This document shows positions 1-17,650 of a stretch of 40,470 bases of DNA, piece after piece. Under the pieces are notes generated by a model. It saw nothing but the letters and a program-made list of their open reading frames with translations. It had not been told where the DNA came from and ran no database searches. Position numbers and translations under genes: made by a program. The stretch lies in UHGV virus genome UHGV-0078430; one strand, 5' to 3'. Numbering within the stretch: position 1 is the stretch's first letter; the number at the start of each line of letters is the position of its first letter. Source of the stretch: a virus.

Positions 1-49
1 TTATAAGTTCATCTTTAAATGATAATCAATTGCATGGGAGTTTATCACC

Positions 50-1570
50 ATGAGGAGCGTAATTACATACTTGAGATTCTCATCAGCCATACAAGGCGCT
101 GAAGGTGCAGATTCAACCAGACGACAAAATGACCTGTTCAAGCAGTGGCTGAAGAAGAATAGCGATGCTCAAGTAGTAGCGTCTTTCAGTGATGAAGGTC
201 TATCCGGTTACAAAGGTAAGCATCTTACTGGTCAGTTTGGTGACATGTTAGCCCGTATTGAGTCTGGGGAGTTTCCAGAAGGTACGATTTTGCTTGTTGA
301 GAGTATCGACCGTATAGGCCGCTTAGAACACCTTGAAACAGAAGCCTTGATGAATCGCATCTTAGGCAACGGGTTAGAGATTCACACGCTACAAGATGGT
401 CTTATCTACACAAAGGATGCTTTAGCCGATGATTTAGGAATCTCAATCATCCAGCGTGTCAAAGCCTACATAGCGCATCAGGAGAGTAAGCAGAAGTCTT
501 TCCGTGTTAGCGAGAAGTGGAAACAACGTGCAAAACTTGCCCTTGCTGGTGAACAACGTTTAACAAAGATGGTTCCCGGATGGATTGACCCCGATACTCT
601 CAAACTCAATGAACACGCTGAGACTGTAAGACTGATTTTCAAGCTGCTGCTAAGTGGTGAAAGTCTGCATAACATTGCACGTCACCTTCAAAGCAACGGT
701 ATAAAGTCGTTTAGTCGCCGTAAAGATGCTAACGGGTTCAGTGTTCATTCTGTGCGTACTATCTTAAGGTCAGAGACAACGATAGGCACACTACCAGCAT
801 CACAACGTAATGACCGCCCCGCTATACCGAACTACTACGAAGCCGCCATAGACGCTGCAACGTTCAATAAAGCTCAAGAAATCCTCGATAAAAATCGTAA
901 AGGCCGTACACCTGCAAGTGATAACCCATTAACGATTAACATCTTCAAGGGATTATTCCGGTGTCAGTGTGGGGCTAGTGTCCATCCTACCGGAACAAAG
1001 AATAAGTATGCTGGGGTCTACAGGTGCAATAACCACTTAGACGGTCGCTGTGATGTTCCACCGCTGAAGCGTAAACCGTTTGATAAGTGGATGCTTGAAA
1101 ATTTTCTAGGAATGATTGACGTGGGGAATGATGGAGAAGCAGAGGGGAAGATTGCATCTCTACAGCATGAGGTTGAAATTGTCACAACCAGAATCAAGAA
1201 AGCTACCGCCCTACTTCTTGAGATGGATGATATTGATGAACTAAAAATTCAGATTAAGGAACTGAACCAGAGGCGTACAGAGCTACAGACCACGATTGAT
1301 AACATGAGGCGTAAGGCTTCACTCACTGATAAGGAACTACCCCAGCTTAAAGATATTGACCTGACAACTAAAGCGGGTCGTGTCGAGTGTCAGTTGATTT
1401 TGTCCAAACATCTAAAAGGGCTTACATTGGGTAAGGATTCGGTAATTGTAACGCTACAGAACGACACTGAAATCACCATACCTACAAACCCGTTACCGCT
1501 AAATGATGGAACATCAATATTTGAAATTGCTGAAAAAGAGCTACTAGAAATAGACGCTTATCAACTGTAA
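50..1570 (+). CDS. large serine recombinase (integrase/resolvase family)
   Basis: N-terminal YLRFSSAIQ catalytic-serine motif and ESIDRIGR motif typical of resolvase-type catalytic domain; 506 aa with Cys-rich zinc-ribbon-like block (CQCGAS...YRCNNHLDGRC) and coiled-coil C-terminus as in large serine recombinases. Confidence 0.85.
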   Translation: MRSVITYLRFSSAIQGAEGADSTRRQNDLFKQWLKKNSDAQVVASFSDEGLSGYKGKHLTGQFGDMLARIESGEFPEGTILLVESIDRIGRLEHLETEALMNRILGNGLEIHTLQDGLIYTKDALADDLGISIIQRVKAYIAHQESKQKSFRVSEKWKQRAKLALAGEQRLTKMVPGWIDPDTLKLNEHAETVRLIFKLLLSGESLHNIARHLQSNGIKSFSRRKDANGFSVHSVRTILRSETTIGTLPASQRNDRPAIPNYYEAAIDAATFNKAQEILDKNRKGRTPASDNPLTINIFKGLFRCQCGASVHPTGTKNKYAGVYRCNNHLDGRCDVPPLKRKPFDKWMLENFLGMIDVGNDGEAEGKIASLQHEVEIVTTRIKKATALLLEMDDIDELKIQIKELNQRRTELQTTIDNMRRKASLTDKELPQLKDIDLTTKAGRVECQLILSKHLKGLTLGKDSVIVTLQNDTEITIPTNPLPLNDGTSIFEIAEKELLEIDAYQL

Positions 1571-1575
1571 TTTTC

Positions 1576-1598
1576 AGGGGCTATGAAGCCCCTTTTTA
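1576..1598 (+). terminator. putative Rho-independent terminator after recombinase gene
   Basis: 7-bp stem aggggct/agcccct with 4-nt loop followed by ttttta. Confidence 0.45.
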
Positions 1599-1602
1599 TG
1601 TC

Positions 1603-2394
1603 TCAATAAGTGCCCTTCTTGTTCGGATTTACAGAAAACTTCCGTAAAGCATTACCCGACTTAAGCACCTTTGAAGCTTGCTCATTAGCTGAGGCTGTGA
1701 AGGTGCTCTCACCATTTTTAACACTAACGCTCTTAGAGCACGTTACACGGGCTTTTAGCGCTTCATCTGATAACTCACTTGCCGAATAGCTAAAAAGCTC
1801 TTTACAGGTCAGCATAGGGCTTCCAAGACTCGTTGTAGTGTTGCCAGTGTTCTTTTTACTGGTAGCACCACCATCATTCGTAGTCGCGGCTTTTCCAGTT
1901 GCAGCCGAGATATCAGTCTGCCCCACAATAGCTTTAAAGTTAATTTCCTGAAAAGTTAGCTGGATTCTTAGGCCATTTGAAATACCAACATCTTTAGAGG
2001 CTTTAAAGCTCGTGATAATGGAATCATCAATTTTAATTCCGTCTTTACAGATGACCGAAATAATCTGCTTCTGGTCACGCCAGTTTTCCAGAGTGTCGAT
2101 GAAGTTTTCTACCAGCTTATTATCTCTTGAGATAAGGATACTACCGGATTCACCAACCACAACCACACCACTAATAGTAATTGTTCTGGGTGAACGCATT
2201 ACATTATCTGTTACAGTCTGCCCTGATTGCATATTTTGAGTGGTCACCATCATAGGGCTGTCATATTCCATGTTTTCAGTTGCTGATAGTGACAAGAAAT
2301 TATCTGGTTGGCCTTGTAGATGAAAGTAAACGCCATCTTTACCAGTGTAACGAAGCTGATTAGTGTAAATCATTAAATTCTCCTTTGATTTCAA
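1603..2394 (-). CDS. hypothetical protein, possibly distal-tail (Dit)-like by position
   Basis: 263-aa ORF immediately downstream of tape-measure-like gene, Ser/Thr-rich C-terminal half; function inferred only from position. Confidence 0.4.
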
Positions 2395-2455
2395 AGGCTT
2401 AGTGTATTTTAATCATTTTTAACCAAGCCTTTGATATATAAGTGTTTTCTCTGCT

Positions 2456-2519
2456 AAGCGTGTTGTACGTAAATTCTATTTTTCAGTGTGGGTATTAGCT
2501 TTACAGATTTCACGTAGCA
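2456..2519 (-). promoter_or_regulatory. conserved upstream element, copy 1
   Basis: about 64 bp sharing blocks (tgctacgtgaaatct, atacccac, tttacgta, cacgctta on the minus strand) with a second copy at 4601-4663; lies upstream of ORF 1603-2394. Confidence 0.45.
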
Positions 2520-2530
2520 TTCGACTATTA

Positions 2531-4579
2531 TTAATCATCTTCTGGGAATGATGAACTTAATAGCGTAGCTTCTGCATATTGGTCGTAGATATTACTGCTA
2601 AAGGTCATAAAGCTGGTTTCATCTGGTTTAATGGCAACTTCACCACCAAGTGAAACTTTCACAGGCTCCTGAATACGTTTGCTCAAAGCACTAATTTCAT
2701 CTCTCAGGCTTTGGATATCCGTATTCGTTAATGCCGCATCTTGTCTCATGGTGATTAATTCTGGATGCTGGAAGTTAGCAAGATTCATAGCTGCACTACT
2801 AAACCAACCTTTAACATCGTCCATAGTGAACACTGGTTTAAGTCCAGACTCTTTAGCTAGCTCTGGTAATTTAGCTTGTGCTTCCATTCGTTCAGGTGTA
2901 GAAGCTAATCTCTCATAACCTGCATAGATAGCACTACCAGCTAATAACATATTCCCAAGATTAAACCTTGATGGTTTCCCGTTCTTTCTATTCACGTTAT
3001 CCGCTGTAGTATCAGCGACCTGACCTAATCTTGTGATAGCAGTCATAAGCCCGTAAATACTTCTGGTTACACCAACAACTTTATTCACAGCAATAACACC
3101 AGCCAAGACTTTTAAACTATTAATCAAGCCAGAACCTAAAGCATCAACTACTTTCTTTTGTTCATCGGTTAAACCACGGTAAGCTAATGTCACCTCATCA
3201 AAGAATGCTCTTACCCTGTAGCTGATATCAGTCAATGAATCCACACCACTTGACATAGAAGTCATGAGACTACCAAGAGATTCACCAAGACTTTTACCGC
3301 TTCCACCTAAACTATTTAAAAGATTGGTTAAGCTTCTTGTGAAATCTTGAAGACCATTTTCAGAACCTCTGAAGATACTATCAAGCGTGGTATTCCAAGA
3401 GTTTTTCAGGTTCCCTAGTTGTGCCTGTGTACTTTCTGAAATAGCTTTCCAGCCGCCTTTAGCGGTGATTTGTCTATTCAGTTCCTGAGTGACCTTCTGA
3501 AGAGTATCGGCAGATTTTAAAGCCCCCTTCTTCATGGCATCAAATAATTCCTGTTCAGTCTTTCCGGTTGCTTTAGCGAATACCTGAACCATACCAGGAA
3601 CAGCTTCAGCTAATTGCCCCTTAAGCTCTTCAGCCATAATCTGACCCTTACCAGCCATCTGTGATAATGCTGTCAGTGCTCGCTTAATCTCTTCTTCACT
3701 TCGACCCATTAAACGAGAATAGCCAATCATATTTCTAAAAAGTTCTTCAGAACCTTGAATACCCATAGATTCTTTAGCTGAAGCACCAAAACCAGCAAAC
3801 TGTGATTGCAGTTCAGCGATATCTAAACCCGTTGTTTGAGCTAATGACTTTGTGAAATCTTTTACTTGACCTGCATCTTTATCAAATACGAAATCAATAC
3901 TTCTTTCCGATGATGCACGTTGAAGGCCAACTTCCATTACTCGCTGATAAGCGGATAGTACAGCCTGAAAGCTGATAAATGCACCTGCTGCTCTAACCGC
4001 TGCTGAAGACAGGTTATCAAGGCTGCTAGCTGCTCTGTCACTATTAATGCTGGTGGATGTATGACCTCTGGCTTTAGCAATTGCTTCTCTGACTGAAGCG
4101 TTTAACTGAGCTAACTTCTCATTGAATTTTGAAGAATCCATTGACCCGGCTTTAGCAGATAGCCCGTAAAACTGACTCTTAATGTATTTCTCGACAATTG
4201 GGTTAAGGCCTTTTAGCTTGCTCATATTCGCTGAGTAAGCTGCTGTGATTGCTCTGTTTCCGCTAATTCGTGGCTGTCTTGGTTGTTTTGGAGGATTAAC
4301 AGTGTCATTAAATCTGGTGGTAAACTGGAAAGCTTTAGTATTTCTTGCTCTCTGTTCAATCTTGTCAAAGGCCTTATTAAACTTCCTTTCAAGTTGCCCT
4401 AAAGAACTTGTCAAATTACTATCAAGCTGTTTTGTATTAATCCTGAAACCTTTATTTAGGTTCTTTTCAATTCTTTGTGCTGACTGCAAAGCTGCCTTTT
4501 CAACTCTTTGCAGTCCCTTAATAACGTTCTCGCTGAAGCCTAGCTCAACGATAAAACTATCAACTTTAAATTGTGCCAT
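2531..4579 (-). CDS. phage tail tape-measure-like protein
   Basis: 682 aa, coiled-coil N-terminus, central region resembling tape-measure domain (GLDIAELQSQFAGFGASAKESMG ... ALSQMAGKGQIMAEELKGQLAEAVPG ... FAKATGKTEQELFDAMKKG), Gly/Ser-rich segment; assignment from recalled motif pattern. Confidence 0.6.
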   Translation of the reverse strand: MAQFKVDSFIVELGFSENVIKGLQRVEKAALQSAQRIEKNLNKGFRINTKQLDSNLTSSLGQLERKFNKAFDKIEQRARNTKAFQFTTRFNDTVNPPKQPRQPRISGNRAITAAYSANMSKLKGLNPIVEKYIKSQFYGLSAKAGSMDSSKFNEKLAQLNASVREAIAKARGHTSTSINSDRAASSLDNLSSAAVRAAGAFISFQAVLSAYQRVMEVGLQRASSERSIDFVFDKDAGQVKDFTKSLAQTTGLDIAELQSQFAGFGASAKESMGIQGSEELFRNMIGYSRLMGRSEEEIKRALTALSQMAGKGQIMAEELKGQLAEAVPGMVQVFAKATGKTEQELFDAMKKGALKSADTLQKVTQELNRQITAKGGWKAISESTQAQLGNLKNSWNTTLDSIFRGSENGLQDFTRSLTNLLNSLGGSGKSLGESLGSLMTSMSSGVDSLTDISYRVRAFFDEVTLAYRGLTDEQKKVVDALGSGLINSLKVLAGVIAVNKVVGVTRSIYGLMTAITRLGQVADTTADNVNRKNGKPSRFNLGNMLLAGSAIYAGYERLASTPERMEAQAKLPELAKESGLKPVFTMDDVKGWFSSAAMNLANFQHPELITMRQDAALTNTDIQSLRDEISALSKRIQEPVKVSLGGEVAIKPDETSFMTFSSNIYDQYAEATLLSSSFPEDD

Positions 4580-4600
4580 TGTTCATATTTCACCTCTGTT

Positions 4601-4663
4601 AAGCGTGAGCTACGTAAAAAATAATTTTTGGTGGGTATATCTGTTCAGGAGATTTCACGTAGC
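4601..4663 (-). promoter_or_regulatory. conserved upstream element, copy 2
   Basis: second copy of the 2456-2519 element, ends about 20 nt upstream of the tape-measure-like start codon; contains 7-bp inverted repeat gctacgt/acgtagc. Confidence 0.45.
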
Positions 4664-4789
4664 ACACATACAAAAAAGGGAGAAACTACCGAATAATATC
4701 GATAATCTCTCCCCGTGTTATAGATTCGATAGAACCTATCTCATACACCCAACCAATTCTATTAGATTCGATTAGAAGCTAATCTCAAA

Positions 4790-4999
4790 TTAATGCCTGA
4801 CAAGATAATGTAGTTCCGTTTCACCTATAATTTGAGCATCGGAAGGGATACGGTCGATACACCACTTTGGAATCTTGCGTGTTTTTGGTTTGCGTGAGGT
4901 GATAATTTGATGTTTGGTTTTAATTCTTAAGGCTGGCTTAGTTTGTAACTTTAAGTTTTCACAAACAGACCGGATAGTCTCTAAACGTTCTTCAAACAT
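4790..4999 (-). CDS. hypothetical small basic protein
   Basis: 69-aa ORF between two larger minus-strand genes; no recognisable motif. Confidence 0.3.
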   Translation of the reverse strand: MFEERLETIRSVCENLKLQTKPALRIKTKHQIITSRKPKTRKIPKWCIDRIPSDAQIIGETELHYLVRH

Positions 5000-5022
5000 T
5001 AATCACCTCTTTTAATTCATAA

Positions 5023-5733
5023 TTAAAGCACCTTTGAGTACTTCGTTGAAATCTTCGTTAACTGCTCAATATCGGCTTGCATAGCAATCTTCTTCTGCGT
5101 TTCATATCCACTAACAAGCTCTTTCATGCTATCAAGTTCTTTTCTAAGTTTTTGCTTTAACTTATCCAGTTTACCGGAATAATGCTTAGTCAAATTAGCT
5201 TCAGCTAACTGAAGAATCTCTTCGTCTGTCTTATCAGTCATCAGGATAAATTGACCAGAACCCCTTAATGCTTGTCTGACATCAATTAACCGGAACCCTT
5301 CAGGGATACTTTGAAGAACTTTAGGAACGTCTTCAATCGCTGTACCAAAACCATCATTAAAGTTTCCTTCATAATAGATAAACGGGTTTGACTTAATCTC
5401 GTAAGCAATATCATATTCTGAAGGTTTCGAGGTTTCTTCGAAGTTCTTAACAGCATCGTAAGCAATATCAAGTCGAATACGCTGTTCTTTTAGCCGTGGG
5501 TAATATTCACGCTCAAGCTCAAATAGTGCTTCAGTTTTGCAAACATCAGGCATCTCCTGAGGTTCAGGATACACAAAGATGGTTGTTTTTGGTGACATCT
5601 TTAGCGATTGCTCAAGCTTAATTCTTTCATCGTGTTCTTTACGCTGGATAGTGATAGCTGGATGTTCAGTCTGTGGTGACCAGTCCCCGAAGCTATCAAT
5701 CTTTCTGCCGTTAATAAATAAATCATTTGTCAT
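5023..5733 (-). CDS. hypothetical protein
   Basis: 236-aa ORF with Lys/Glu-rich coiled-coil-like C-terminus; no recognisable catalytic motif. Confidence 0.5.
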   Translation of the reverse strand: MTNDLFINGRKIDSFGDWSPQTEHPAITIQRKEHDERIKLEQSLKMSPKTTIFVYPEPQEMPDVCKTEALFELEREYYPRLKEQRIRLDIAYDAVKNFEETSKPSEYDIAYEIKSNPFIYYEGNFNDGFGTAIEDVPKVLQSIPEGFRLIDVRQALRGSGQFILMTDKTDEEILQLAEANLTKHYSGKLDKLKQKLRKELDSMKELVSGYETQKKIAMQADIEQLTKISTKYSKVL

Positions 5734-5940
5734 TATAACTTCCTCTAAGTGTGGTTATTTCTTAATAGAGCACCTTCAACGCCAATACACTTAGAAGATG
5801 ACTTAACGATTTATTAAAGATGCTCTATTAAGAAAAGCCCTAAACATAGGTTCATCCTTATCTGTGAAGGGCTTTGGAGTTTGCTTATAACGTTAACGGA
5901 GTTTCAGGAAAAACTTTCTTTAAAAGCTCTGTTTAAAAAC

Positions 5941-5973
5941 TCTTAAAGAAACGCCCTAACTCATGATTAGGGC
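5941..5973 (-). terminator. putative terminator between upstream 4-gene operon and downstream genes
   Basis: stem gccctaa/ttagggc with 7-nt loop; on the minus strand followed by gtttcttt. Confidence 0.35.
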
Positions 5974-6304
5974 AAAGCTGTAAGGGTTCAATAATGAATG
6001 ATTAAGCACTTTTTGATATATAGCCTATCTAGTGGGCTAAATAGGCCATGTAGCGAAAAGCATTGCACCTTTCAGAATGTTCGGTATAGAACATACCTCA
6101 CCAACTCAGAATATCCATCCATCCATCGGATTATTGAAAGAAAAATAAGAGAGAATTACTCTCCCATAATTAAAATTATGTCATGCTTAAGGTTATTTGT
6201 CAACAGCTTTTTAACAGATTGGTAACATTAATTCTTATTTACCGTGTTACCTACCCAGCAACCAACAAATAAACCCAAAGCTGTCCAAGCAATTATTAAG
6301 CCCA

Positions 6305-6649
6305 TTAATGCACCACCTTCGAATCCGTCACCAAAATATTGTCAGCGTACAAAATTGCTATAGCTGCCTTGAGATATCCTTCAGGGCTAACGCTGTATTT
6401 GTTCGTTTGCTCGATAACCAATCTTTTCATGTTGCTGTCTTTAATTGGTAGCATCATTCGAGGCTCGTTAAACTCCACCGACTGAATAAAGTCAGAGATG
6501 CTTTCCGCATTATCAGCCATTAACTCTAACAACTTATCAAAGTCAATGCTAACACCTACATCAGTGAAAGCCTGAATCATCATAGCGGTGTCGTTATCAA
6601 CCATAATTTGCATTGGGTAATTGTTCATTTTTAAATTCCTATAAAACAC
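6305..6649 (-). CDS. hypothetical protein
   Basis: 114-aa ORF, last gene of a co-directional 4-gene cluster; true start may be internal Met (MNNYPMQ). Confidence 0.45.
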   Translation of the reverse strand: MFYRNLKMNNYPMQIMVDNDTAMMIQAFTDVGVSIDFDKLLELMADNAESISDFIQSVEFNEPRMMLPIKDSNMKRLVIEQTNKYSVSPEGYLKAAIAILYADNILVTDSKVVH

Positions 6650-6765
6650 ATCTTAAATCTGCCAAAATAGCCATTCTGAGGCCAGTAACCATGCGGGTTA
6701 CAGAGGGAGTGAGACACCTTAGTAATAGGGTAGCTCATCTTTGAGTCTCACTCATTCTTACAGGC

Positions 6766-7152
6766 TTACACAGACGCTTTAATCTTGTAGTATTGACTGC
6801 GTGATAAACCGTATTTCTCAGAAATATAACTTTGTGATTGTCCTTTGGTGATTGCATCAATGATTAAATCTTTATCGTATCTTTTACCGTTGGCTTTGTG
6901 CTTGTCGCCACTTTTAATAGAGTTGAAATTCTCAATTAATTTAATGGCGTCTTTAAGGTCGTCTTCGTAAGCATAATCAAAACCCCTGATAAACTCGAAA
7001 TCACCATTATCTTTTTGTGCTTCAGTCCAGATATCAAATCTTGAGGCTAATTGCTGGTGGGTAAACTTGGGCTTATTGGTTTGTGTTACGTCTTTCCAGA
7101 CTTTACCGTCAAATCTTACCAAATGGTCACGATGTTTATAAAAGTCATACAT
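6766..7152 (-). CDS. hypothetical protein with C-terminal helix-turn-helix
   Basis: 128 aa; C-terminus ISEKYGLSRSQYYKIK resembles HTH of resolvase/terminase-small-subunit/transposase-type DNA-binding domains. Confidence 0.5.
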   Translation of the reverse strand: MYDFYKHRDHLVRFDGKVWKDVTQTNKPKFTHQQLASRFDIWTEAQKDNGDFEFIRGFDYAYEDDLKDAIKLIENFNSIKSGDKHKANGKRYDKDLIIDAITKGQSQSYISEKYGLSRSQYYKIKASV

Positions 7153-7430
7153 TAAACCTCCATCGCTAATTTGTGAATTTTAATGCTTAGTAACCTTGCT
7201 AAATCCAGTCCAAAAGCATTTAAAGATTTCAGATTATCAAGGTCGGCTTGCTCAATCCTGATATGGTGTCTTGCAGCCTCTAAGCGGCTATTAAGCAAAT
7301 CTTGTTCGTTAATATCACGGTTAATTGCAAGCTTCATCACTGCTGAGTGTGGCAGACCTGTAATGTTTTTGATTCGGTTCAGTTCATCAAAGGCTGTCTT
7401 TGTAACTCTGGTTAAAGTGTGTTTGCTCAT
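7152..7430 (-). CDS. hypothetical protein
   Basis: 92-aa ORF; start overlaps stop region of upstream gene and stop abuts next gene (translational coupling). Confidence 0.45.
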   Translation of the reverse strand: MSKHTLTRVTKTAFDELNRIKNITGLPHSAVMKLAINRDINEQDLLNSRLEAARHHIRIEQADLDNLKSLNAFGLDLARLLSIKIHKLAMEV

Positions 7431-7431
7431 T

Positions 7432-7989
7432 TTAAAATTCCTCTGTAACTAAATACGGGTCAAACTCGAAATCTGGTTGCTCGTTTTCCATTGGCTCAAT
7501 ATTTCCAACGGCAATATGATGCTCAACAACACCAATTAACTTTGCGCACATTACAGCAAGCAAAGCGCAATATTTATCGCTTGGTAATTCATGGCTAAGT
7601 CTGGTTGCTTGACGCTGAAGATGATTTGTCACGGTGGCTGAGTTAATTTCATCAAGACTTCGCAGTAAATAAAAAACCTTCTGGTTGTATTTCTGGTGAC
7701 CCTCGCTTCTGCAAAATCCAATAAAAATATCATCAAGCTTGCTCGGTAGTTGCGCGTAGCTGTCAAAGCTAGCCAGATAATTCTTGATGCTGTTCTTTGT
7801 TGTTTTGCGTGTTGGCATGTAACGGTTCCTCGGTGTAATTGCCCGAATTACTTCGTCAATGCCTTTGCGTTCTTTCTTGGTAAACTTGGGTAATTCGTGG
7901 CTGGTGGGGGAGTTTGTGTAAGCGTAGGAGTTGTGCTTGTTGCGTTCTCTTGATGCCTGAAGCATCGCTCTAAATTCTGCGTCTCTCAT
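7432..7989 (-). CDS. hypothetical protein
   Basis: 185-aa ORF, first gene of the 4-gene cluster; divergent promoter region upstream (7990-8112). Confidence 0.5.
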   Translation of the reverse strand: MRDAEFRAMLQASRERNKHNSYAYTNSPTSHELPKFTKKERKGIDEVIRAITPRNRYMPTRKTTKNSIKNYLASFDSYAQLPSKLDDIFIGFCRSEGHQKYNQKVFYLLRSLDEINSATVTNHLQRQATRLSHELPSDKYCALLAVMCAKLIGVVEHHIAVGNIEPMENEQPDFEFDPYLVTEEF

Positions 7990-8076
7990 TCATATTCTGA
8001 CCCTCATAAGATGTTATTATTCTGTTAACTTATATAGACAATACTAGCATTTTCAAAGACTAATGTCAAGCATTTT

Positions 8077-8106
8077 TTAACATTTTATTAACATCTGTGG
8101 TATAAT
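8077..8106 (+). promoter_or_regulatory. putative sigma70 promoter with extended -10
   Basis: TGgTATAAT at 8098-8106 with ttaaca -35-like hexamer about 17-18 bp upstream. Confidence 0.4.
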
Positions 8107-8286
8107 GGTTCTATGGGGAGAGTAAAATATAAAGGCGTGGCTATGATTTGGTCACATGGTTATTGCATTGCACACAGACCTCTTCAATCGCTCTGTAACG
8201 AGTTAAACAGCCTCTTAAGGTCAACTATAAGGTCAGGTACTTTTTTGTGTCAGAATGCGATTGAGAGCGTCTTACAAGGAAAACTA

Positions 8287-8463
8287 ATGGTAAATCTCCC
8301 TCCTGAGCTGGGGTCACCTGATGTGTGGGCTGGTGGAGGTGTGGGTCTGTTCGCAGGTCTGTTACTTCGCTACGTCCTCGTCAGGGTGCTTGTTGTCTTT
8401 AGACTGTTCGGTCGTACATGGACGCTTGACCTTAAGGATAACAACCACACAGACCCCCGTTAA
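8287..8463 (+). CDS. small hydrophobic (single-pass membrane-like) protein
   Basis: 58-aa ORF (MVNLPPELGSPDVWAGGGVGLFAGLLLRYVLVRVLVVF...) preceded by AAGGA RBS; sits in a locally GC-rich patch inside the AT-rich island, downstream of a strong promoter; both overlapping frames are open so coding status is uncertain. Confidence 0.3.
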   Translation: MVNLPPELGSPDVWAGGGVGLFAGLLLRYVLVRVLVVFRLFGRTWTLDLKDNNHTDPR

Positions 8464-8476
8464 ACTCCCTTCAAAA

Positions 8477-8515
8477 CCCCCTGTACGAGATGGTATAGGG
8501 GTATCTTTAGCATTT
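8477..8515 (+). terminator. weak terminator-like hairpin
   Basis: cccct/agggg stem with 14-nt loop followed by T-rich tatctttagcatttt. Confidence 0.25.
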
Positions 8516-8583
8516 TGTGCTATCTATTAAAAAACAGCTTGACATAACCGGAAAGCTGTATCTATCAAGTATTCACCTCTCTG

Positions 8584-8755
8584 ACAGTAATTGCTAAAAG
8601 TTCTTATTTTTCAATAAGTTGTAATTAGCCATATATAGAGAACTGACAAGCCTCTTCACAGTTAACTCTGAAACCTTAACAGTAAATTCTAAAAGTTCTT
8701 ATTTTTCAATGAGTTGTAATTAGCCAATATAAAGGACTGACAAGACCCTTCACAG
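8584..8755. repeat. tandem direct repeat, 2 copies of about 78 bp at 95-bp period
   Basis: 8584-8661 and 8679-8755 align along their length (acagtaa.t.ctaaaagttcttatttttcaat.agttgtaattagcca...gactgacaag.c.cttcacag). Confidence 0.7.
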
Positions 8756-8783
8756 AGAACTTCCTGGACTCACTAAGATACAA

Positions 8784-8990
8784 GGCGATAACCCCAGAAA
8801 GGGAGAGCCACCTTCTTAACCGACTTCTTAAACAATCTTTACAGACCCCGTTCACCAGTCTCAATATTTTTATTTCTCGCTCTTCGTTTGTTGCTCGTTT
8901 CTATTATTGAGGGGGTTTGAAAAACCTCTGTAAAATAACCCTTCCAGTAAAAAGCGAATAACCCCAGACAGGGGAAATCGCCTCTTTAAC
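8784..8990. repeat. two copies of about 36-bp element
   Basis: gcgataaccccagaaagggagagccaccttcttaac (8784-8820) and gcgaataaccccagacaggggaaatcgcctctttaac (8954-8990). Confidence 0.4.
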
Positions 8991-9021
8991 ATTCTCGTAA
9001 TCAGTGCTCTATATGAGAATT

Positions 9022-9684
9022 TTAGCCCAACCTTTGAGCAATCCTGTATGACGTGCTCAGAGGCATTCTGAGAGCATCTGCAATGCACTTAATGGGTTTG
9101 CCTTGCCTGTATAGTTTTATGAAGCTGTCGAGCGTCTCAGGTGGGTAAATGGTGGGTCTTCCTCTTAAGCCTCCTCTGTTAATGATGGTTAACGGTAATA
9201 GCGTGTCAGCACAGCAAACCATCTGCGTAATTTCATGCTTACGTGGTTCTTTTTTAAAAACAACGACTGCACTTGGAAACGGTGAACGAATAACAAGCCT
9301 GTTATGGCCTGCTGGTGGAAGGTATTTAACTGCACGATGAAGAATACGGATTTCATGGCAAAGCGGGTTTGTGAAGATGTGCTTAAGCCAGTATATGGTT
9401 TGGGGTCGGTACGGTATCAGGAATACCGCTAAATCTGCTTCAGACGCTTTTACGAGGAATGTTTTAGTGTCGCTGTATGGTGGGTTACAGAATACCTTTT
9501 CACCAACCCATGACTGATTGTGGATATCATCGGTGAACCGTGGCAACAATGCGTCATGCTCAGTTGCAGCACCATCCAGACTGAAACTAAACTCACGGTG
9601 TAAGTTCTTGAATAATAAAAATGGAGTTCTCCAGTAATCAGAACCCCCATGATGTTTCCCGATTAAAATACACTCAATTGACAT
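9022..9684 (-). CDS. phage-type DNA N6-adenine methyltransferase (Dam family) with C-terminal HTH
   Basis: FCNPPYSD catalytic motif, DGAATEHDALLPRF upstream motif typical of phage Dam-like MTases; C-terminal HTH-like tail (LSTSYRIAQRLG). Confidence 0.8.
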   Translation of the reverse strand: MSIECILIGKHHGGSDYWRTPFLLFKNLHREFSFSLDGAATEHDALLPRFTDDIHNQSWVGEKVFCNPPYSDTKTFLVKASEADLAVFLIPYRPQTIYWLKHIFTNPLCHEIRILHRAVKYLPPAGHNRLVIRSPFPSAVVVFKKEPRKHEITQMVCCADTLLPLTIINRGGLRGRPTIYPPETLDSFIKLYRQGKPIKCIADALRMPLSTSYRIAQRLG

Positions 9685-10001
9685 AAGAAATAAAAATTTT
9701 TATTGCAATCACTCTTGACAAGGTTTACTCTCTTTTAAGAGATACTTAACAGGCTTTCTAAACGGATATCCTTTCTGGGATATCTATCTCTTATCTTAAA
9801 AGTCTTTATAGATACTTTAAAGATATCTGTATTAAATCTGTACAGTAACTTTTCAGACTCTGAAAATTTTTATAAAATCGTAATAGCCCCTCTTCAAATT
9901 CCCCTTCTAAAAATCTTCGAAAATATCTATCACAGGTCTATACCTGCTAAGTACCCGCCACACCAGCTATGTGACCCCCTTTGCAGAATTTTAAAATATC
10001 T

Positions 10002-10766
10002 ATGAGGTTTATTCGATAGAGGTTGGTACAAGCCCAACTAACCGAATCAACTATTGACTTTCTTCATAGTATCTGTTAACTCCACCTCAAGAAACCTTCA
10101 TCACACTTCAAAGCATCTATCAAGAAGATTTAACCTATCAATAGCTGTAACATTTTATAGTTCTGTGAAGTCCTATCCAGTTTTCTCTGTAACAGACACA
10201 AACTTCTGTGACCTTATGTATCAATGACTTACAAGACATGCTCTCAAGGTGCTGTATAGCCTCTTATCAGCCAATACACAAAACCCTTATAAATCAGTAC
10301 TGATACATATACAGTGTGTTTTTAACATAATAGCTGTTTTACGCACTAATCGTGTTCTACATGAAATCTGTATAGATATTAAGGTGTCTGTAAGTGATTT
10401 TTTAAGAGGAACTACGAAGGAACTATGAGGTTGATTCCTAGAACTAACCGAATCAACTATAACCATCACCTCCTAACTTTCACATAGCTGATTGTTATCT
10501 CTTGCAACTGTAACGTATGGTGACCAAACATCTATATATCGTTATATAGCCCTGTATATAGCACTTTTCTAGGAGTCTGGAGAGGGACGACTAACACGAT
10601 ACAGTTTACCCTGAAAAGAGACTTCACAGATTCTTTATATATTTCAATAAGTTAGGGTAAAAAGAGACTATGCTGATACTGCATAGAATCTGTGTAAAAC
10701 TGCTTAGATACTTGGGAAAATGCCTTTAAATTGCATAGTCATAGGGGTTGGAACAAGCCCAACTAC
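10002..10766. repeat. family of three related 25-55-bp elements in an ORF-poor region
   Basis: 10002-10056 atgaggtttattcgatagaggttggtacaagcccaactaaccgaatcaactat; 10424-10460 atgaggttgattcctagaactaaccgaatcaactat; 10741-10766 ataggggttggaacaagcccaacta; core gttgg-N7-ccaac dyad. Confidence 0.5.
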
Positions 10767-11054
10767 ACCTGATATTGTCCTGTAATTAACAGGTCTCTTA
10801 GAAAACCGAATAGACTTCATTCAAGGGTCATTGAAGTCATAATCATTTCAGTAGAAAAACCAGGTCTCGATTTTAAATGCAAATAGCAATCATATTCAAT
10901 AAGGCAAGACGATCAGGATCAGTGAAAATGTCATTTTTGGCGTAATTACCCTTACTTTATGCATGGCCTTAACAAAGACATCATCTTTCCGTTGCAGATC
11001 TTCGCCCTTTCAAATAACGTACTTTACAACTTTCCCGAACAAGGAGTTGTGCCC

Positions 11055-11351
11055 GTGTTGTATGTTATTTACGCTCAAGACAAAGCTGATAGCCTCGAAA
11101 AACGCCTTTCCGTTCGTCCGGCACATTTAGCACGTTTACAGTTACTGCATGATGAAGGTCGTTTGTTGACAGCTGGTCCAATGCCAGCGGTAGACAGTAA
11201 CGATCCAGGGGCTGCGGGATTTACTGGCTCAACCGTTATTGCTGAATTTGAATCGCTGGAAGCAGCTCAGGCCTGGGCCGATGCTGACCCGTACGTAGCG
11301 GCAGGAGTCTATGAACACGTTTCAGTGAAACCATTTAAGAAAGTGTTCTAA
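11055..11351 (+). CDS. yciI: YciI-like protein
   Basis: 98-aa product from GTG start with AAGGAG RBS 8 nt upstream; sequence (RPAHLARLQ...GRLLTAGP...ADPYV..GVYE) matches my recollection of enterobacterial YciI family; the longer ORF from 10959 is probably not the real start. Confidence 0.75.
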
Positions 11352-11415
11352 TTTATTAGAAATTTGCACTTAAATCAAAAAGTTACGGACAATTCAACCA
11401 CCAATCAATAAATTA

Positions 11416-11450
11416 AAGGGCACATTAAAGTACACAATATTTGTGCCCTT
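11416..11450. terminator. hairpin between convergent yciI and invertase genes
   Basis: 9-bp stem aagggcaca/tgtgccctt with 17-nt loop, T-rich flank; weak as intrinsic terminator. Confidence 0.3.
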
Positions 11451-11469
11451 CTCTGTTTCTTTCCCGTTA

Positions 11470-12018
11470 TCAGCTAGCTGGAAACTTTTTATACAGAGTT
11501 GAGAGCCCTACTCCATACGTTTTTGATACGCTTTGTCGTGATTCACCGGTTGCCATCCGCTCCCCCATTTCCCGCCATTGCTCATCCGTGAACTTAGGCC
11601 TGCGACCACCAACTCGCCCTTTTGCCCTGGCTACGGCCAGCCCTGCTAAGGTACGTTCGCTATTAAGATCAGATTCATATTGTGCTGCGGAAAGGATGTT
11701 ACGAAAGTTATAGCGGCCGCTGGCTGTTTTGAGATCCACGCCATCGGTAATACTGCGGAAGTTGATACCCTTTTCCTGTAACTGCTGGAACATCAACAGC
11801 GCATGCAGAACGTTGCGGCCTATCCTGTCCAGCTTCCAGACCACCAGTTCATCCCCCGGCTGCATAGTGGCGATCAGCCGTTTTAGAACCGGCCGATTCG
11901 ATTTCCTCCCGCTGGCATGCTCTTCAAAAATTTTCTCACAACCCGCTGACTTGAGCGCCGTTAGTTGCAATTCAGTGTCCTGGTGGTTTGTTGATACTCG
12001 GGCATAACCGTAAATCAT
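11470..12018 (-). CDS. site-specific DNA invertase (Pin/Gin/Hin/Cin family small serine recombinase)
   Basis: MIYGYARVSTNHQ catalytic-Ser N-terminus, VVWKLDRIGR motif, C-terminal HTH (VGLSTLYKK); start trimmed to internal ATG at 12018 with AGGAG RBS 7 nt upstream. Confidence 0.9.
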   Translation of the reverse strand: MIYGYARVSTNHQDTELQLTALKSAGCEKIFEEHASGRKSNRPVLKRLIATMQPGDELVVWKLDRIGRNVLHALLMFQQLQEKGINFRSITDGVDLKTASGRYNFRNILSAAQYESDLNSERTLAGLAVARAKGRVGGRRPKFTDEQWREMGERMATGESRQSVSKTYGVGLSTLYKKFPAS

Positions 12019-12021
12019 GGG

Positions 12022-12048
12022 ATTTCTCCTGTTATGAAAACAGGAGAA
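12022..12048. other. 27-bp inverted repeat overlapping the invertase RBS
   Basis: minus strand tttctcctgtt-ttcat-aacaggagaaa, 11-bp arms with 5-bp spacer immediately upstream of the invertase start codon. Confidence 0.3.
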
Positions 12049-12077
12049 ACGGCGAAGCATCACCAGATTTTTGATGG

Positions 12078-12103
12078 TTATAAAAAAGGTTGGTTTGGGA
12101 AAC
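12078..12103. other. candidate hix/gix-like recombination site
   Basis: ttataaaaaaggttggtttgggaaac resembles my recollection of 26-bp hix/gix sites (TTATCAAAAACC..GGTTT..); only one copy found. Confidence 0.3.
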
Positions 12104-12152
12104 ACGAAGTATGAATGTAGTGCACCACATAAATTTCGAATCTTTGGCAAGC

Positions 12153-12183
12153 AAAACTGGATCACTAATAGTGATCCAGTTTT
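12153..12183. other. perfect 31-bp palindrome
   Basis: aaaactggatcact-aat-agtgatccagtttt, 14-bp arms; downstream of tail-fibre stop; terminator or protein-binding site. Confidence 0.4.
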
Positions 12184-12251
12184 AAATACCAATCGAAGGT
12201 TAAATGGTGGGCTTGTTGAGCCTAGAGCCTGTACATAAATTTTTTATTTTA

Positions 12252-14687: not shown

Positions 14688-15349
14688 GCGCCGTCATCAA
14701 AACCGGCGATGTATTCGTTATCCATGTCAAATCCAAAGAATTTTGTTCCTTCGGACGGTGTTTCGACCGAGGGTGTTTCAACGCCGCCAGCCCATACACC
14801 AGCAGCTTTAACGGTGAGATAACCCTGTTTGATAGCGGCTATCAGTTCGAGTGACACATCAGAAATATCAGTCTCGGGAAAAACCCAGACCGATATCGTC
14901 ATGTCCTGGTTGTCGACAATTTGCATCCTCAGGCCTGAGCCTGCAGTCGCAGCGTCAAGGATGGGAGGCAGAGAGTCGTTCCGACCGTCCCAGTTGTTGA
15001 TAGCGATTTTCGCTTTCAGAATGATGCGGTACGTCTCATCGCTTAGCGTCGTATAGCCAGAATCAGGATCATATGGCCCTTGCCAGATGCCCTGGTCATA
15101 CCCAAGCCCGTCAGTGTCCCAGCTGAAATAAACTCCGCTAATTGGCTGGCTGACTATGCGACTGCGTCCGATCCACAGACCGAGGATGTCGAGCTGTACA
15201 CCGACAGCAGTATCGATATCGAAGGCTGTTATAAGCCCTGACATAGTGCTGGACACATCAATCAGCGGGCGGGTGCTCAGATCTATATGGTCAAAAAAGA
15301 GTGGCTTGGTAGCGTGGTAGTTAGTGATCAGTTCGGTGTATTTGCTCAT
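14669..15349 (-). CDS. baseplate protein (P2 gpI / Mu gp48-like by position)
   Basis: 226 aa, between baseplate J-like gene and tail fibre gene as in P2/Mu gene order. Confidence 0.5.
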   Translation of the reverse strand: MSKYTELITNYHATKPLFFDHIDLSTRPLIDVSSTMSGLITAFDIDTAVGVQLDILGLWIGRSRIVSQPISGVYFSWDTDGLGYDQGIWQGPYDPDSGYTTLSDETYRIILKAKIAINNWDGRNDSLPPILDAATAGSGLRMQIVDNQDMTISVWVFPETDISDVSLELIAAIKQGYLTVKAAGVWAGGVETPSVETPSEGTKFFGFDMDNEYIAGFDDGAWGRLL

Positions 15350-16545: not shown

Positions 16546-16899
16546 TTATGCCTCGCTTGTTACAGTCGTCTGGCCGTAGATTGTGTCAATGGAGGAAGTG
16601 AAGGTGACGCGACGGCTGGTGCCGTCATAATTGGTATCGAAGGAAAGAATCGACAGAACGCCCGGTGTATCCTGTATGCGTTCGCGTATAGCCAGGATGT
16701 AGACATCTGATCGCTGCTTCCCAAGCACTGACTGAACATACGGCGTGCCTTCCGTCAGATCGAGAAACCACTGACCGCGCCACAGCTCGAAACGGGTTTT
16801 TACGGCCTGGGCGACACATTCCGGACTGTCGATAAGGAAAGTATCGTCACCCTGGCCGAAAGTGTAATCGCCTTCAGTATCTTCGCGACGGTATCGCAT
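16546..16899 (-). CDS. baseplate wedge protein (gpW / Mu gp46-like)
   Basis: 117 aa, between V-like and J-like genes. Confidence 0.55.
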   Translation of the reverse strand: MRYRREDTEGDYTFGQGDDTFLIDSPECVAQAVKTRFELWRGQWFLDLTEGTPYVQSVLGKQRSDVYILAIRERIQDTPGVLSILSFDTNYDGTSRRVTFTSSIDTIYGQTTVTSEA

Positions 16900-17639: not shown

Positions 17640-17650
17640 AAAACCCCCAT

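What the first reader, a model, noticed from the sequence alone, without database searches (positions are those of the whole stretch)
6305..7989. Tightly coupled four-gene operon of unrecognisable small proteins
Genes of 185, 92, 128 and 114 aa are co-directional with overlapping or abutting stop and start codons, suggesting co-translated partners. Only the third gene has a recognisable feature, a C-terminal HTH. The operon starts at a divergent promoter region shared with a promoter-driven small membrane protein gene. This compact layout in an accessory island is typical of regulatory, toxin-antitoxin or defence modules.
Basis: partly seen in the sequence, partly recalled or inferred. Interest (0 to 1): 0.55.

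Follow-up and report, generated by a model that had tools for sequence, protein, structure and literature searches.

The report
Control operon of a new phage satellite
The four small genes are real and conserved, and they form the front operon of an ~11 kb mobile island, carried by about 7% of E. coli genomes, that has copied tail genes and control DNA from Felix-O1-type lytic phages and so looks like an undescribed phage satellite; what each protein does is still unknown.

Summary
The ORFs exist on the minus strand at 6305-7989 and are under purifying selection (dN/dS 0.1-0.3).
- Gene 4 is 107 aa, not 114.
- A 137-nt hairpin-containing spacer separates genes 3 and 4.
- A fifth, 25-aa membrane-peptide ORF overlaps gene 4's stop codon.
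- The divergent membrane gene is 58 aa, not 116.

Context is what informs. Window 1-10790 is an integrative element: large serine recombinase, Dit-like protein, tape measure, this operon, Dam-HTH. The element occurs alone in yecE, tonB-yciI and wrbA in other E. coli. Its Dit-like protein is 70% identical to the Felixounavirus gene that follows the tape measure. Its non-coding end copies Felixounavirus promoter and genome-end DNA.

The operon is modular. Gene 1 is replaced in some variants by a lambda-O-like gene with internal iterons. Gene 3 is replaced by HNH endonuclease genes. Genes 2, 4 and 5 are constant.

Best reading (about 0.5): the early control and replication operon of a new satellite-like element. 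The toxin-antitoxin or defence reading is unsupported. Individual protein roles are inferred, not shown.

The parts
8041..8069 (-). Promoter of the operon: TTGACA, 17 nt, TG-n-TAGTAT
   Evidence: Consensus scan, 10/12 with TG; conserved in all eight aligned variants, with the -10 hexamer reading TAAGAT in two of them.
8077..8093 (-). Phased repeat TGTTAA-N5-TGTTAA, 7 nt upstream of the -35. It also forms the -35 and spacer of the divergent promoter.
   Evidence: 5 hits at <=1 mismatch in 40 kb against 0.34 expected, all in promoter or non-coding parts of the element; present at the same place in every variant.
8012..8028 (+). Inverted copy of the phased repeat, inside the G1 5' untranslated region
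   Evidence: a perfect TTAACA-N5-TTAACA in L001, L007, L010 and L011.
7432..7989 (-). G1, 185 aa. Basic N-terminus, confident helical core (aa 61-165), conserved acidic tail ending in Phe. This is the swappable slot.
7152..7430 (-). G2, 92 aa, basic. Two strand-helix-helix-like sequence patterns. Constant member with three alleles.
   Evidence: Residues H4, T5, T7, R8 and the I-R-I triplet are invariant across alleles that are otherwise 30-57% identical. Pfam DndE E about 0.02-0.03 in 5 of 6 alleles, below threshold.
6766..7152 (-). G3, 128 aa, weak C-terminal HTH (aa 94-127). Optional cargo slot.
   Evidence: Replaced by a 71-aa gene plus an HNH_3 endonuclease gene, or by HNH plus two small genes, in L006, L007, L009, L010 and L016.
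6629..6765 (-). G3-G4 spacer with hairpins (inverted repeat 6702-6715 / 6745-6758)
6305..6628 (-). G4, 107 aa. Acidic N-terminal half (pI 4.05), basic C-terminal half (pI 9.2). Constant member.
6228..6305 (-). G5, a 25-aa hydrophobic peptide ORF coupled to the G4 stop (TAATG)
   Evidence: dN/dS 0.06-0.17; a different 21-aa hydrophobic ORF occupies the same place in L008.
8077..8106 (+). Divergent promoter TTAACA, 18 nt, TG-n-TATAAT
   Evidence: 11/12 with TG.
8287..8463 (+). 58-aa membrane-protein gene divergent from the operon
   Evidence: dN/dS 0.11-0.21; RBS AGGAA. A non-homologous small membrane ORF sits in the same position in L014.
8478..8501 (.). Hairpin terminator that closes the 58-aa gene. 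Read on the other strand, it separates the upstream Dam unit from the operon.
6175..6203 (-). Next promoter downstream (TTGACA, 17 nt, CATAAT), with the same phased repeat 7 nt upstream (6211-6227)
   Evidence: perfectly conserved.
6145..6167 (-). Terminator-like hairpin directly after that promoter. This is the boundary between the operon and the tail-gene operon.
   Evidence: pairing kept through compensatory changes among variants.

Best explanation
G1-G2-G3, a spacer, and G4-G5 form the promoter-proximal ('early') transcription unit of a ~10.8 kb integrative element (window ~1-10790). The element consists of a large serine recombinase, a Dit-like tail protein, a tape measure, two unknown genes, this operon, a divergent 58-aa membrane gene, a Dam-HTH methylase and 1.1 kb of non-coding DNA. 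It is most likely a satellite or parasite of virulent Felix-O1-like myoviruses, working on the same logic as the Vibrio PLE elements.

Within the element, the operon is the modular control and replication region:
- G1 occupies the slot that sister elements fill with a lambda-O-type initiator gene carrying its own iterons. G1 is therefore inferred to be the element's DNA-binding replication organiser, or failing that its early activator.
- G2, and possibly the C-terminal half of G4, are inferred to be small sequence-specific DNA-binding regulators. They would act on the conserved phased TGTTAA-N5-TGTTAA repeats that bracket the operon promoter and precede the tail-gene promoter.
- G3 is an optional HTH cargo gene.
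- G5 is a small membrane peptide.

Shown: gene reality, operon layout, modularity, element identity, and sharing of genes and DNA with Felixounavirus. Inferred: every individual biochemical role and the satellite life style.
For: Gene reality:
- dN/dS is 0.1-0.3 for all five ORFs and for the 58-aa gene.

Layout:
- One near-consensus promoter; coupled start and stop codons.
- No terminator was found by the scan before the hairpin at 6167-6145.

The element:
- The same ~11 kb element sits alone inside yecE, between tonB and yciI and beside wrbA.
- The recombinase is only 34-35% identical between the window element (at the yciI site) and three sister elements, including the yecE copy. This fits an active, retargeting mobile element.
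- A distant version in another assembly keeps Dam-HTH (51%), G1-like (34%), tape measure (23%) and recombinase in the same order.

The operon is backbone, not cassette:
- Every G4-containing locus examined is this element.

Modularity:
- G1, the 58-aa gene and ~1 kb of non-coding DNA are replaced in L014 and L015 by a 326-aa HTH_36-type gene (E=0.002). In L014 that gene contains three tandem 23-bp iterons followed by AT-rich DNA, the lambda O/ori arrangement.
- The distant G1-like gene is followed at once by three 41-bp AT-rich tandem repeats.
- The window element has no other candidate replication gene.
- G1 has a basic N-terminus and core plus a conserved acidic tail ending in Phe.
- The G3 slot alternates with HNH_3 endonuclease genes.

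Regulatory DNA:
- TGTTAM-N5-TGTTAA occurs 5 times against 0.34 expected, only at the element's promoters and non-coding regions, and at the same places in all variants.
- Across G2 alleles of 30-57% identity, the residues of the two predicted strands are invariant (H-T-x-T-R and I-R-I).

Link to the helper phage:
- The Dit-like protein is 70% identical over 99% of its length to the Felixounavirus gene directly after the tape measure.
- The tape measure is 29% identical over its full length to Felixounavirus tape measures.
- The element's non-coding end copies a Felixounavirus promoter and leader (86% over 63 nt) and DNA 170-320 nt from the phage's left end (73-85%).
- The same phased TGTTAA pairs cluster at both ends of the phage genome.
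Against: - No protein of the operon has a significant sequence or fold match to any initiator, regulator or other known family.
- The window element has no short iterons next to G1, only two 95-bp repeats about 600 nt upstream.
- The G1 homologue in Aeromonas phage 85AhydR10PP has no iterons nearby.
- Positional replacement does not prove equal function.
- The TGTTAA pair upstream of the promoter is also simply the -35 and spacer of the divergent promoter, so it need not be an operator.
- The operon promoter looks constitutive, and no repressor gene is identified.
- Satellite behaviour (excision, replication, packaging) is untested. The element has no capsid or terminase gene.
Confidence: 0.5

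Rival explanations
1. Toxin-antitoxin, abortive-infection or other defence module. A small membrane peptide (G5 or the divergent 58-aa protein) would be the toxin, held in check by the small putative DNA-binding proteins (G2, G4) or by antisense RNA. The module would stabilise the island or kill phage-infected cells.
For: - Two conserved small hydrophobic ORFs flank the operon.
- G4-G5 are translationally coupled.
- In type B and C operons the G4 leader carries two ~32-nt blocks that would pair with the 5' UTR of the 58-aa gene's mRNA.
- A non-homologous small membrane ORF occupies the same divergent position in L014.
Against: - No PADLOC hit, and no significant Pfam or NCBIfam toxin or antitoxin hit. 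The only one is a single sub-threshold VAPB_antitox match (E=0.1) in one of six G2 alleles.
- The operon is never found outside this element.
- G1 and G3 are exchanged for initiator-type and homing-endonuclease genes, not for other defence genes.
- The antisense blocks are absent from the window's own type A operon.
Confidence: 0.15
2. G1 is a transcription factor, either a Q-like antiterminator or an activator, rather than a replication protein. It would be loaded at the TGTTAA direct repeats next to the downstream promoter and let RNA polymerase read through the hairpin terminator at 6167-6145 into the tape-measure operon.
For: - A strong promoter is followed at once by a terminator hairpin whose pairing is kept through compensatory changes, then by a 430-nt highly structured leader (z -6.8).
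- Direct repeats lie beside that promoter.
Against: - L014 and L015 lack G1 but keep the same promoter and hairpin, so G1 cannot be essential for read-through.
Confidence: 0.15
3. The operon redirects helper-phage DNA packaging. One or more of the small DNA-binding-like proteins would act as a small-terminase substitute or partner that recognises the element's copy of the helper's end sequences.
For: - The element carries helper-phage end-proximal DNA and phased repeats like those at the phage ends.
- It has no terminase of its own.
- HNH endonuclease genes, which assist terminase in some cos phages (from general knowledge), alternate with G3.
- G2 has a very weak hit to a P27-family small terminase (E=0.031).
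Against: - The hit is far below threshold.
- The HNH genes are of the HNH_3 homing type.
- There is no structural match to small terminases.
Confidence: 0.1
4. A decaying prophage remnant whose small ORFs have no present function.
For: - The island holds only fragments of a tail module and no head genes.
- One variant (L008) has a frameshifted G1, and L016 has a pseudogenised neighbour.
Against: - Purifying selection acts on every ORF.
- The same architecture is kept across alleles as far apart as 23-57% identity and across three integration sites, each occupied by an element carrying a full-length serine recombinase.
- The promoter, hairpin and repeats are conserved.
Confidence: 0.05

Closest known systems
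[quoted passage not shown]
   Same: - Small island integrated by a large serine recombinase.
- Genes almost all unidirectional and without recognisable families.
- Long non-coding regions with repeats.
- A dedicated initiator next to an iteron origin, switched on by infection with a virulent helper (PMC7145576, read).
- Small membrane proteins (from memory, LidI).
   Different: - Half the size: ~11 kb here, against ~18 kb for PLE (PLE size from memory).
- Carries tail genes (tape measure plus the next tail gene) taken from the presumed helper; as far as I know PLE does not.
- Host is Escherichia/Shigella/Salmonella.
- Satellite behaviour is not demonstrated here.
Early or regulatory operons of P4-like satellites and of Gram-negative PICIs (alpA, pri-rep)
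   Same: A promoter-proximal block of small regulators and a replication gene sits upstream of the genes that manipulate helper morphogenesis, in an integrative island of about 10-15 kb.
   Different: - No AlpA, no primase-helicase, no tyrosine integrase, no Psu, Sid or Delta homologues.
- The morphogenetic genes here are for the tail, not the capsid.
- The presumed helper is virulent, not temperate.
Lambda O protein with its internal origin (iterons plus AT-rich DNA inside the gene)
   Same: The gene that replaces G1 in L014 and L015 has an N-terminal winged-helix-type match (HTH_36). In L014 it carries three tandem 23-bp iterons and then AT-rich DNA inside its reading frame.
   Different: - This describes the alternative module, not G1 itself.
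- G1 has no such iterons and no HTH_36 match.
- The HTH_36 match itself is below Pfam's threshold.
Ribbon-helix-helix regulators (CopG, Arc, MetJ class; tandem-RHH TraY)
   Same: G2 twice, and G4 at least once, show the sequence pattern of a short polar strand, a helix, a G-x-S/T-like turn and a second helix. The helix positions predicted for G4 fit this pattern. The candidate DNA targets are direct repeats one helical turn apart.
   Different: - No significant profile or structural match.
- G4 as a whole is acidic.
- The resemblance is a lead only.
Uncharacterised phage proteins related to G1 (Aeromonas phage 85AhydR10PP AWH15028; Pseudomonas phages phiK7A1 and 98PfluR60PP; Klebsiella phage RaK2)
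   Same: Sequence similarity (33% identity, E=2e-8) and fold similarity (Foldseek E=2.6e-6 to 1.4e-2). In the Aeromonas phage the gene is also the first after an ~850-nt non-coding gap.
   Different: None has a known function, so they give no annotation.

Membership tests
Ribbon-helix-helix superfamily (for G2) | Significant match to an RHH profile or solved RHH structure | tested here: inconclusive
   Pfam DndE E=0.023-0.029 in 5 of 6 alleles and VAPB_antitox E=0.1 in one, all below threshold. PDB profile searches gave nothing relevant.
Ribbon-helix-helix superfamily (for G2) | Internal duplication giving two strand-helix-helix units, as in TraY | tested here: not met
   hhalign of the N-terminal half against the C-terminal half: probability 1.4%, E=0.038, over 14 columns. 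The profiles are very shallow (Neff about 1.8), so the test is weak.
Ribbon-helix-helix superfamily (for G4) | Fold match to RHH domains | tested here: inconclusive
   [not shown]
Resolvase/homeodomain-like HTH (for G3 C-terminus) | Match above Pfam gathering score | tested here: not met
   HTH_28 18.0 bits against a cut-off of 25 (E=0.003); HTH_7 13.8 bits against 23.8; HTH_23 13.1 bits against 24.6; gamma-delta resolvase HTH 1res E=0.93. Three related families agree on aa 94-127, so an HTH is likely but not proven.
Known anti-phage defence systems (PADLOC-DB v2) | Any component protein matching a PADLOC model | tested here: not met
   No family at E<=0.1 for G1-G4, the 236-aa, 69-aa and 116-aa ORFs. 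Only the neighbouring Dam matches, as 'orphan methyltransferase'.
Type II toxin-antitoxin systems | Recognisable toxin or antitoxin domain, and occurrence as a portable two-gene cassette in varied contexts | tested here: not met
   No domain hit. The operon was found only inside one element family, at three chromosomal sites.
Phage satellite (general) | Integrase plus att sites; an autonomous island much smaller than a phage | tested here: met
   A large serine recombinase (Resolvase + Recombinase + Zn_ribbon_recom). An 11.2 kb insertion splits yecE into two annotated halves. The same element lies between intact tonB and yciI and beside wrbA.
Phage satellite (general) | Genes or cis-elements derived from, or aimed at, a specific helper phage | tested here: met
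   Dit-like protein 70% identical, tape measure 29% identical, plus copies of promoter, leader and end-proximal DNA of Felixounavirus.
Phage satellite (general) | Helper-dependent excision, replication and packaging | not testable with these tools
   Needs infection experiments. The four IMG/VR hits lie on 25-55 kb contigs, far larger than the ~11 kb element, so they probably include neighbouring DNA and are not evidence that the element is packaged.
PLE, PICI, cfPICI and P4-like satellite families | Their marker genes: RepA_N initiator; AlpA and Pri-Rep; capsid module; Psu, Sid, Delta or primase-helicase | tested here: not met
   None found in any ORF of the element with Pfam, PHROG or NCBIfam. 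The G1 model shows no RepA_N-like or DnaD-like fold match.
Q-type antiterminators (for G1) | Significant fold or sequence similarity to Q-lambda, Q82 or Q21 | tested here: not met
   [not shown]

The most novel reading that the evidence does not exclude
The operon is the control and replication core of a previously undescribed family of phage satellites of Enterobacteriaceae. These satellites would parasitise virulent Felix-O1-like myoviruses and, unlike known satellites, bring their own tape measure and adjoining tail protein. They would be wired to the helper through copied helper promoter and genome-end sequences. G1 would be a new kind of replication organiser: a basic helical DNA-binding core with an SSB-like acidic tail ending in Phe that recruits the helper's replisome. 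G2 and G4 would be new small repeat-binding regulators.
Probability: 0.35. Interest if true: 0.8.

Novelty: new variant of a known kind. Interest (0 to 1): 0.6.

Why it matters
Known satellites of virulent phages are essentially limited to the Vibrio PLE-ICP1 pair. An E. coli, Shigella and Salmonella island that targets Felix-O1-type phages would be a second such system, and a genetically tractable one. Felix-O1-type phages are used for Salmonella typing and are candidates for phage therapy.

The island is common. The G4 gene is present in 7% of complete E. coli genomes, and two G1 protein clusters recorded mainly from Shigella sonnei are each on at least 1000 contigs. It carries tail-length and baseplate genes rather than capsid genes, which is a different way of exploiting a helper.

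The operon examined here is where the island's decision-making and probably its replication are encoded, by proteins with no known relatives. It is therefore the place to look for new initiator, regulator and helper-sensing mechanisms. It could also explain strain-specific failures of Felix-O1-like therapeutic phages.

Tried and rejected
- Profile searches of all four proteins against Pfam, PHROGs, NCBIfam and PADLOC: nothing significant.
- PDB sequence searches with single proteins and with profiles: nothing significant.
- Exhaustive HMMER search for G1: only 23 representatives, none annotated.
- hhalign of G2 against G4, and of G2's N-terminal half against its C-terminal half: negative.
- Rfam scan of window 1-12000: only one weak chance hit.
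- Distant-relative locus search with the G1 alignment failed for lack of a conserved block. The single-protein genome scan found only E. albertii.
- Naming the alternative 326-aa gene through its homologues gave only 'helix-turn-helix domain-containing protein'.
- An array of YTGTWAR motifs like the one at the phage ends is not enriched in the element's right-hand non-coding region: 4 observed against 2.05 expected.
- Seven literature searches and one paper checked for yecE elements found no description of this island.
- I rejected the 116-aa reading of the divergent ORF. Its N-terminus is not conserved and PGAP does not call it.
- I rejected the GTG start of G4.
Full report
**1. Observation**

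The minus strand of 6305-7989 carries four ORFs:

| Gene | Coordinates | Length |
|---|---|---|
| G1 | 7989..7432 | 185 aa |
| G2 | 7430..7152 | 92 aa |
| G3 | 7152..6766 | 128 aa |
| G4 | 6649..6305 | 114 aa from a GTG |

- G1 and G2 are 1 nt apart. G2 and G3 overlap by 1 nt (TAATG). Each has a Shine-Dalgarno sequence.
- G3 and G4 do not abut. The true G4 start is the ATG at 6628, giving 107 aa. All 120 listed homologues are 105-107 aa, 119 of them 107 aa, and PGAP aa in strain S171-1. That leaves a 137-nt spacer that folds into two or three hairpins.
- A fifth ORF of 25 aa (6305..6228) begins in the TAATG at the G4 stop. It encodes a hydrophobic peptide that is conserved mostly through synonymous changes.
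- Pairwise dN/dS against diverged homologues: G1 0.18-0.29, G2 0.12-0.23, G3 0.11-0.39, G4 0.19-0.31, G5 0.06-0.17. These are real genes.
- The operon promoter (8069..8041, TTGACA-17-TGnTAGTAT) stands back to back with a plus-strand promoter (8077..8106, TTAACA-18-TGnTATAAT). The whole 66-bp block is conserved in all variants.
- The divergent gene is a 58-aa membrane protein (8287..8463, dN/dS 0.11-0.21), not the 116-aa ORF. It ends at a hairpin terminator (8478-8501) that can act in both directions.
- The scan finds no terminator between the promoter and 6203. There, a second strong promoter is followed at once by a terminator-like hairpin.

**2. The proteins themselves**

- Pfam, PHROGs, NCBIfam and PADLOC give no significant match. 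PDB sequence and profile searches give none either.
- **G3.** Three related HTH models agree on aa 94-127, but all score below threshold (best E=0.003).
- **G1, distribution.** There are 1084 clusters at 90% identity, all from Escherichia, Shigella and Salmonella. An exhaustive search at the 50% level finds only 23 representatives, with a few relatives at 27-35% identity.
- **G1, charge.** The N-terminus is basic (pI 10.2) and the conserved tail is acidic (...EPDFEFDPYLVTEEF).
- **RHH idea.** By eye, G2 (twice) and G4 show a strand-helix-turn-helix pattern like ribbon-helix-helix proteins. Every formal test was negative or inconclusive. I treat this as a lead only.

**3. What the island is**

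- The low-GC stretch 1-10790 contains:
  - a large serine recombinase (50..1570);
  - a Dit-like tail protein (2394..1603);
  - a tape measure protein (4579..2531);
  - 69-aa and 236-aa unknown genes;
  - the operon, then the 58-aa gene;
  - a Dam methylase with a C-terminal HTH (9684..9022);
  - 1.1 kb of non-coding DNA.
- In E. coli S171-1 the same 11.2 kb unit sits alone inside yecE. In ETEC4068 and MIN10 it lies between tonB and yciI, as in this window, where yciI is at 10959..11351. In strain M15 it lies beside wrbA.
- The recombinase of the window element is only 34-35% identical to those of three sister elements, including the yecE copy.
- A much more distant version in another assembly keeps Dam-HTH, a G1-like gene, a tape measure and a recombinase in the same order.
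- The G4 DNA is present in 390 of 5426 complete E. coli genomes. Every G4 locus I opened is this element.
- The myovirus prophage from about 11.4 kb onwards is a separate neighbour.

**4. Link to a helper phage**

- The Dit-like protein is 70% identical over 99% of its length to the gene directly downstream of the tape measure in Felixounaviruses, which are ~86-88 kb virulent myoviruses.
- The tape measure is 29% identical over its full length to theirs. Gene order is the same.
- At DNA level, against phage PHB11:

| Window | Phage PHB11 | Identity | What the phage region is |
|---|---|---|---|
| 1828-2344 | 30051-30567 | 83% | Dit-like gene |
| 4496-4580 | 27808-27892 | 80% | Tape measure 5' end |
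| 9745-9807 | 8395-8455 | 86% | Promoter (CTTGACAAGG) and leader hairpin |
| 9920-10000 | 168-248, inverted | 73% | Just inside the phage's left end |
| 9845-9878 | 290-323, inverted | 85% | Just inside the phage's left end |

- No capsid, terminase or known satellite marker gene is present.
- The element therefore looks like a satellite or parasite of Felix-O1-like phages. Its closest analogue in logic is PLE of Vibrio cholerae, which has a large serine recombinase, an initiator next to an iteron origin in a non-coding region, and a virulent helper (PMC7145576). There is no homology between the two.
- I found no description of this island in the searchable literature.

**5. The operon is modular**

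| Type | Loci | Gene order |
|---|---|---|
| A | window, L001, L008 | G1-G2-G3-spacer-G4-G5 |
| B | L006, L007, L009, L016 | G1-G2'(57%)-71 aa-HNH_3 endonuclease-spacer-G4-G5 |
| C | L010 (E. albertii) | G1-G2'-HNH-87 aa-73 aa-spacer-G4-G5 |

- In L014 and L015, G1 is replaced together with the 58-aa gene and ~1 kb of non-coding DNA. The replacement is a 326-aa gene with an HTH_36-type N-terminus (E=0.002). In L014 it has three tandem 23-bp iterons, followed by AT-rich DNA, inside its own reading frame. This is the lambda O/ori arrangement.
- The replacement module also holds another divergent small membrane ORF and a separate promoter for a third G2 allele of about 30% identity.
- So G2, G4 and G5 are the constant members. 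G3 is optional cargo. G1 occupies a slot that can be filled by an initiator-type module.
- In the distant element, three 41-bp AT-rich tandem repeats follow the G1-like stop codon.
- In the window, the nearest repeats are two 95-bp units at 8584-8761.

**6. Candidate regulatory DNA**

- A phased pair, TGTTAM-N5-TGTTAA, occurs five times at <=1 mismatch in the 40-kb window, against 0.34 expected. All five are in the element:
  - 7 nt upstream of the -35 of the operon promoter;
  - inverted, in the G1 5' UTR;
  - 7 nt upstream of the -35 of the 6203 promoter (two overlapping hits);
  - in the right-hand non-coding region.
- The pairs are at the same positions in every variant. One also lies upstream of the G1-like gene of the distant element.
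- In L014 the pair lies in the spacer of the G2 promoter. A Felixounavirus intergenic promoter at 39401 has the same layout.
- Six of the seven exact pairs in phage PHB11 lie within a few hundred nt of the genome ends. There, the related heptamer YTGTWAR reaches 15 and 11 copies per 500 nt, against a mean of 1.5.
- The motif may be an operator for an element protein. In favour of G2: the residues of its two predicted strands are invariant across its three alleles.
- It may instead be a site for a helper-phage protein, or just part of a shared promoter architecture. The upstream pair doubles as the -35 and spacer of the divergent promoter. I cannot decide between these.

**7. Interpretation**

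- Most likely (about 0.5) the operon is the early control and replication unit of this satellite-like island. G1 would be the replication organiser or early activator. G2, and possibly G4, would be small DNA-binding regulators. G3 is exchangeable HTH cargo and G5 a membrane peptide.
- Rivals:
  - a toxin-antitoxin or defence module built on the two small membrane peptides (0.15);
  - G1 as a Q-like antiterminator for the promoter-plus-terminator at 6203-6145 (0.15; weakened because L014 and L015 lack G1 but keep that unit);
  - a packaging-redirection function (0.1);
  - a functionless remnant (0.05).
- All protein roles are inferences from position, composition and conservation. None rests on a significant homology.

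**8. Novelty and verdict**

Of its three interpretations only 'regulatory' survives, and the real interest lies in the island.
- The operon is a new variant of a known kind of thing, a satellite's early region, built from protein families with no known relatives.
- Interest 0.6.

Noticed in passing
window 6145-6203 and 5734-6175 (minus strand): A near-consensus promoter (TTGACA-17-CATAAT) is followed immediately by a terminator-like hairpin whose pairing is kept through compensatory changes in other variants. Next comes a 430-nt leader that folds far better than shuffles (z -6.8), with a second terminator at 5974-5952. Interleaved inverted repeats (5730-5835) cover the RBS and start of the 236-aa gene. 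It looks like an antitermination or attenuation switch in front of the tape-measure operon.
   Followed up: partly
window 9685-10790: This 1.1 kb non-coding right end of the island is nearly identical to strain S171-1 over most of its length, while the genes are about 87% identical. It contains copies of a Felixounavirus promoter and leader hairpin (9745-9807) and of DNA 170-320 nt from the phage's left end (9845-9878, 9920-10000). It is a candidate packaging or helper-sensing region.
   Followed up: partly
window 1603-4579: The island carries its own tape measure (682 aa, against about 735 aa in Felixounavirus) and a 70%-identical copy of the phage gene that follows it. This suggests it alters or hijacks helper tail assembly, possibly giving shorter tails.
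   Followed up: partly
window 10000-10060 and 10423-10460; L006 and L007 upstream of the 58-aa gene: A ~52-bp palindromic unit (ATAGTTGATTCGGTTAG-TTGGGCTTGTACCAACC-CCTATCGAATAAACCTCATAG) is repeated in the island. In L006 it is inserted with a CATAG duplication on both sides, like a miniature transposable element; L007 carries a shorter version at the same spot.
   Followed up: no
window 8584-8761 and 8788-8990: Two tandem 95-bp repeats, and a pair of 33-nt repeats with CCCC/GGGG hairpins, lie in the non-coding region between Dam and the 58-aa gene. They are possibly an origin or an array of binding sites.
   Followed up: no
L007 11325-11499 vs 9688-9786; also L009 and L010: In operon types B and C the leader of G4 carries two ~32-nt blocks that are 88-94% identical to the strand antisense to the 5' UTR of the 58-aa gene. 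The operon mRNA could therefore pair with that mRNA. The blocks are absent from the window's type A operon.
   Followed up: partly
window 7970-7993 (minus strand): A conserved 7-codon mini-ORF (ATGAATGAG...TAG; MNERRRI here, MNERQRI in other variants) overlaps the G1 start codon out of frame. It sits at the better distance from the Shine-Dalgarno sequence, so it may act in translational control of G1.
   Followed up: no
L014 10139-12022 (E. coli ETEC4068); similar module in L015: An alternative module replaces G1. It has a 326-aa HTH_36-type gene with three internal 23-bp iterons (GTAACCAAATTCTGGTTAGGTAG), a degenerate HNH-like 72-aa ORF and its own small divergent membrane ORF. Its protein family is even commoner than G1: 2291 clusters, one of them on at least 1000 contigs.
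   Followed up: partly
window 50-1570; L001, L014, L016: The serine recombinase differs between copies of the island at three different sites (tonB-yciI, yecE, wrbA). It is only 34-35% identical between the window element and three sister elements, including the yecE copy. This would be a natural set of retargeted large serine recombinases.
   Followed up: partly
window 9022-9684: The Dam methylase has a resolvase-type HTH fused to its C-terminus. In other variants (L007, L016) the same position is held by a small serine recombinase, and L014 carries one in addition to its Dam.
   Followed up: no
window 10959-40470: A separate myovirus prophage lies on the other side of yciI. It is 93% identical to Citrobacter phage Omnitron over 55% of the part queried (window 9700-21000) and has a Pin-type invertase. 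The island and the prophage use neighbouring attachment sites, and the same pairing is seen in L007.
   Followed up: partly
whole island: Eight copies of the ~10.8-11.2 kb island add up to about 86-90 kb, the genome size of Felixounaviruses. That would fit headful packaging of island concatemers into normal helper capsids. This is pure arithmetic and untested.
   Followed up: no
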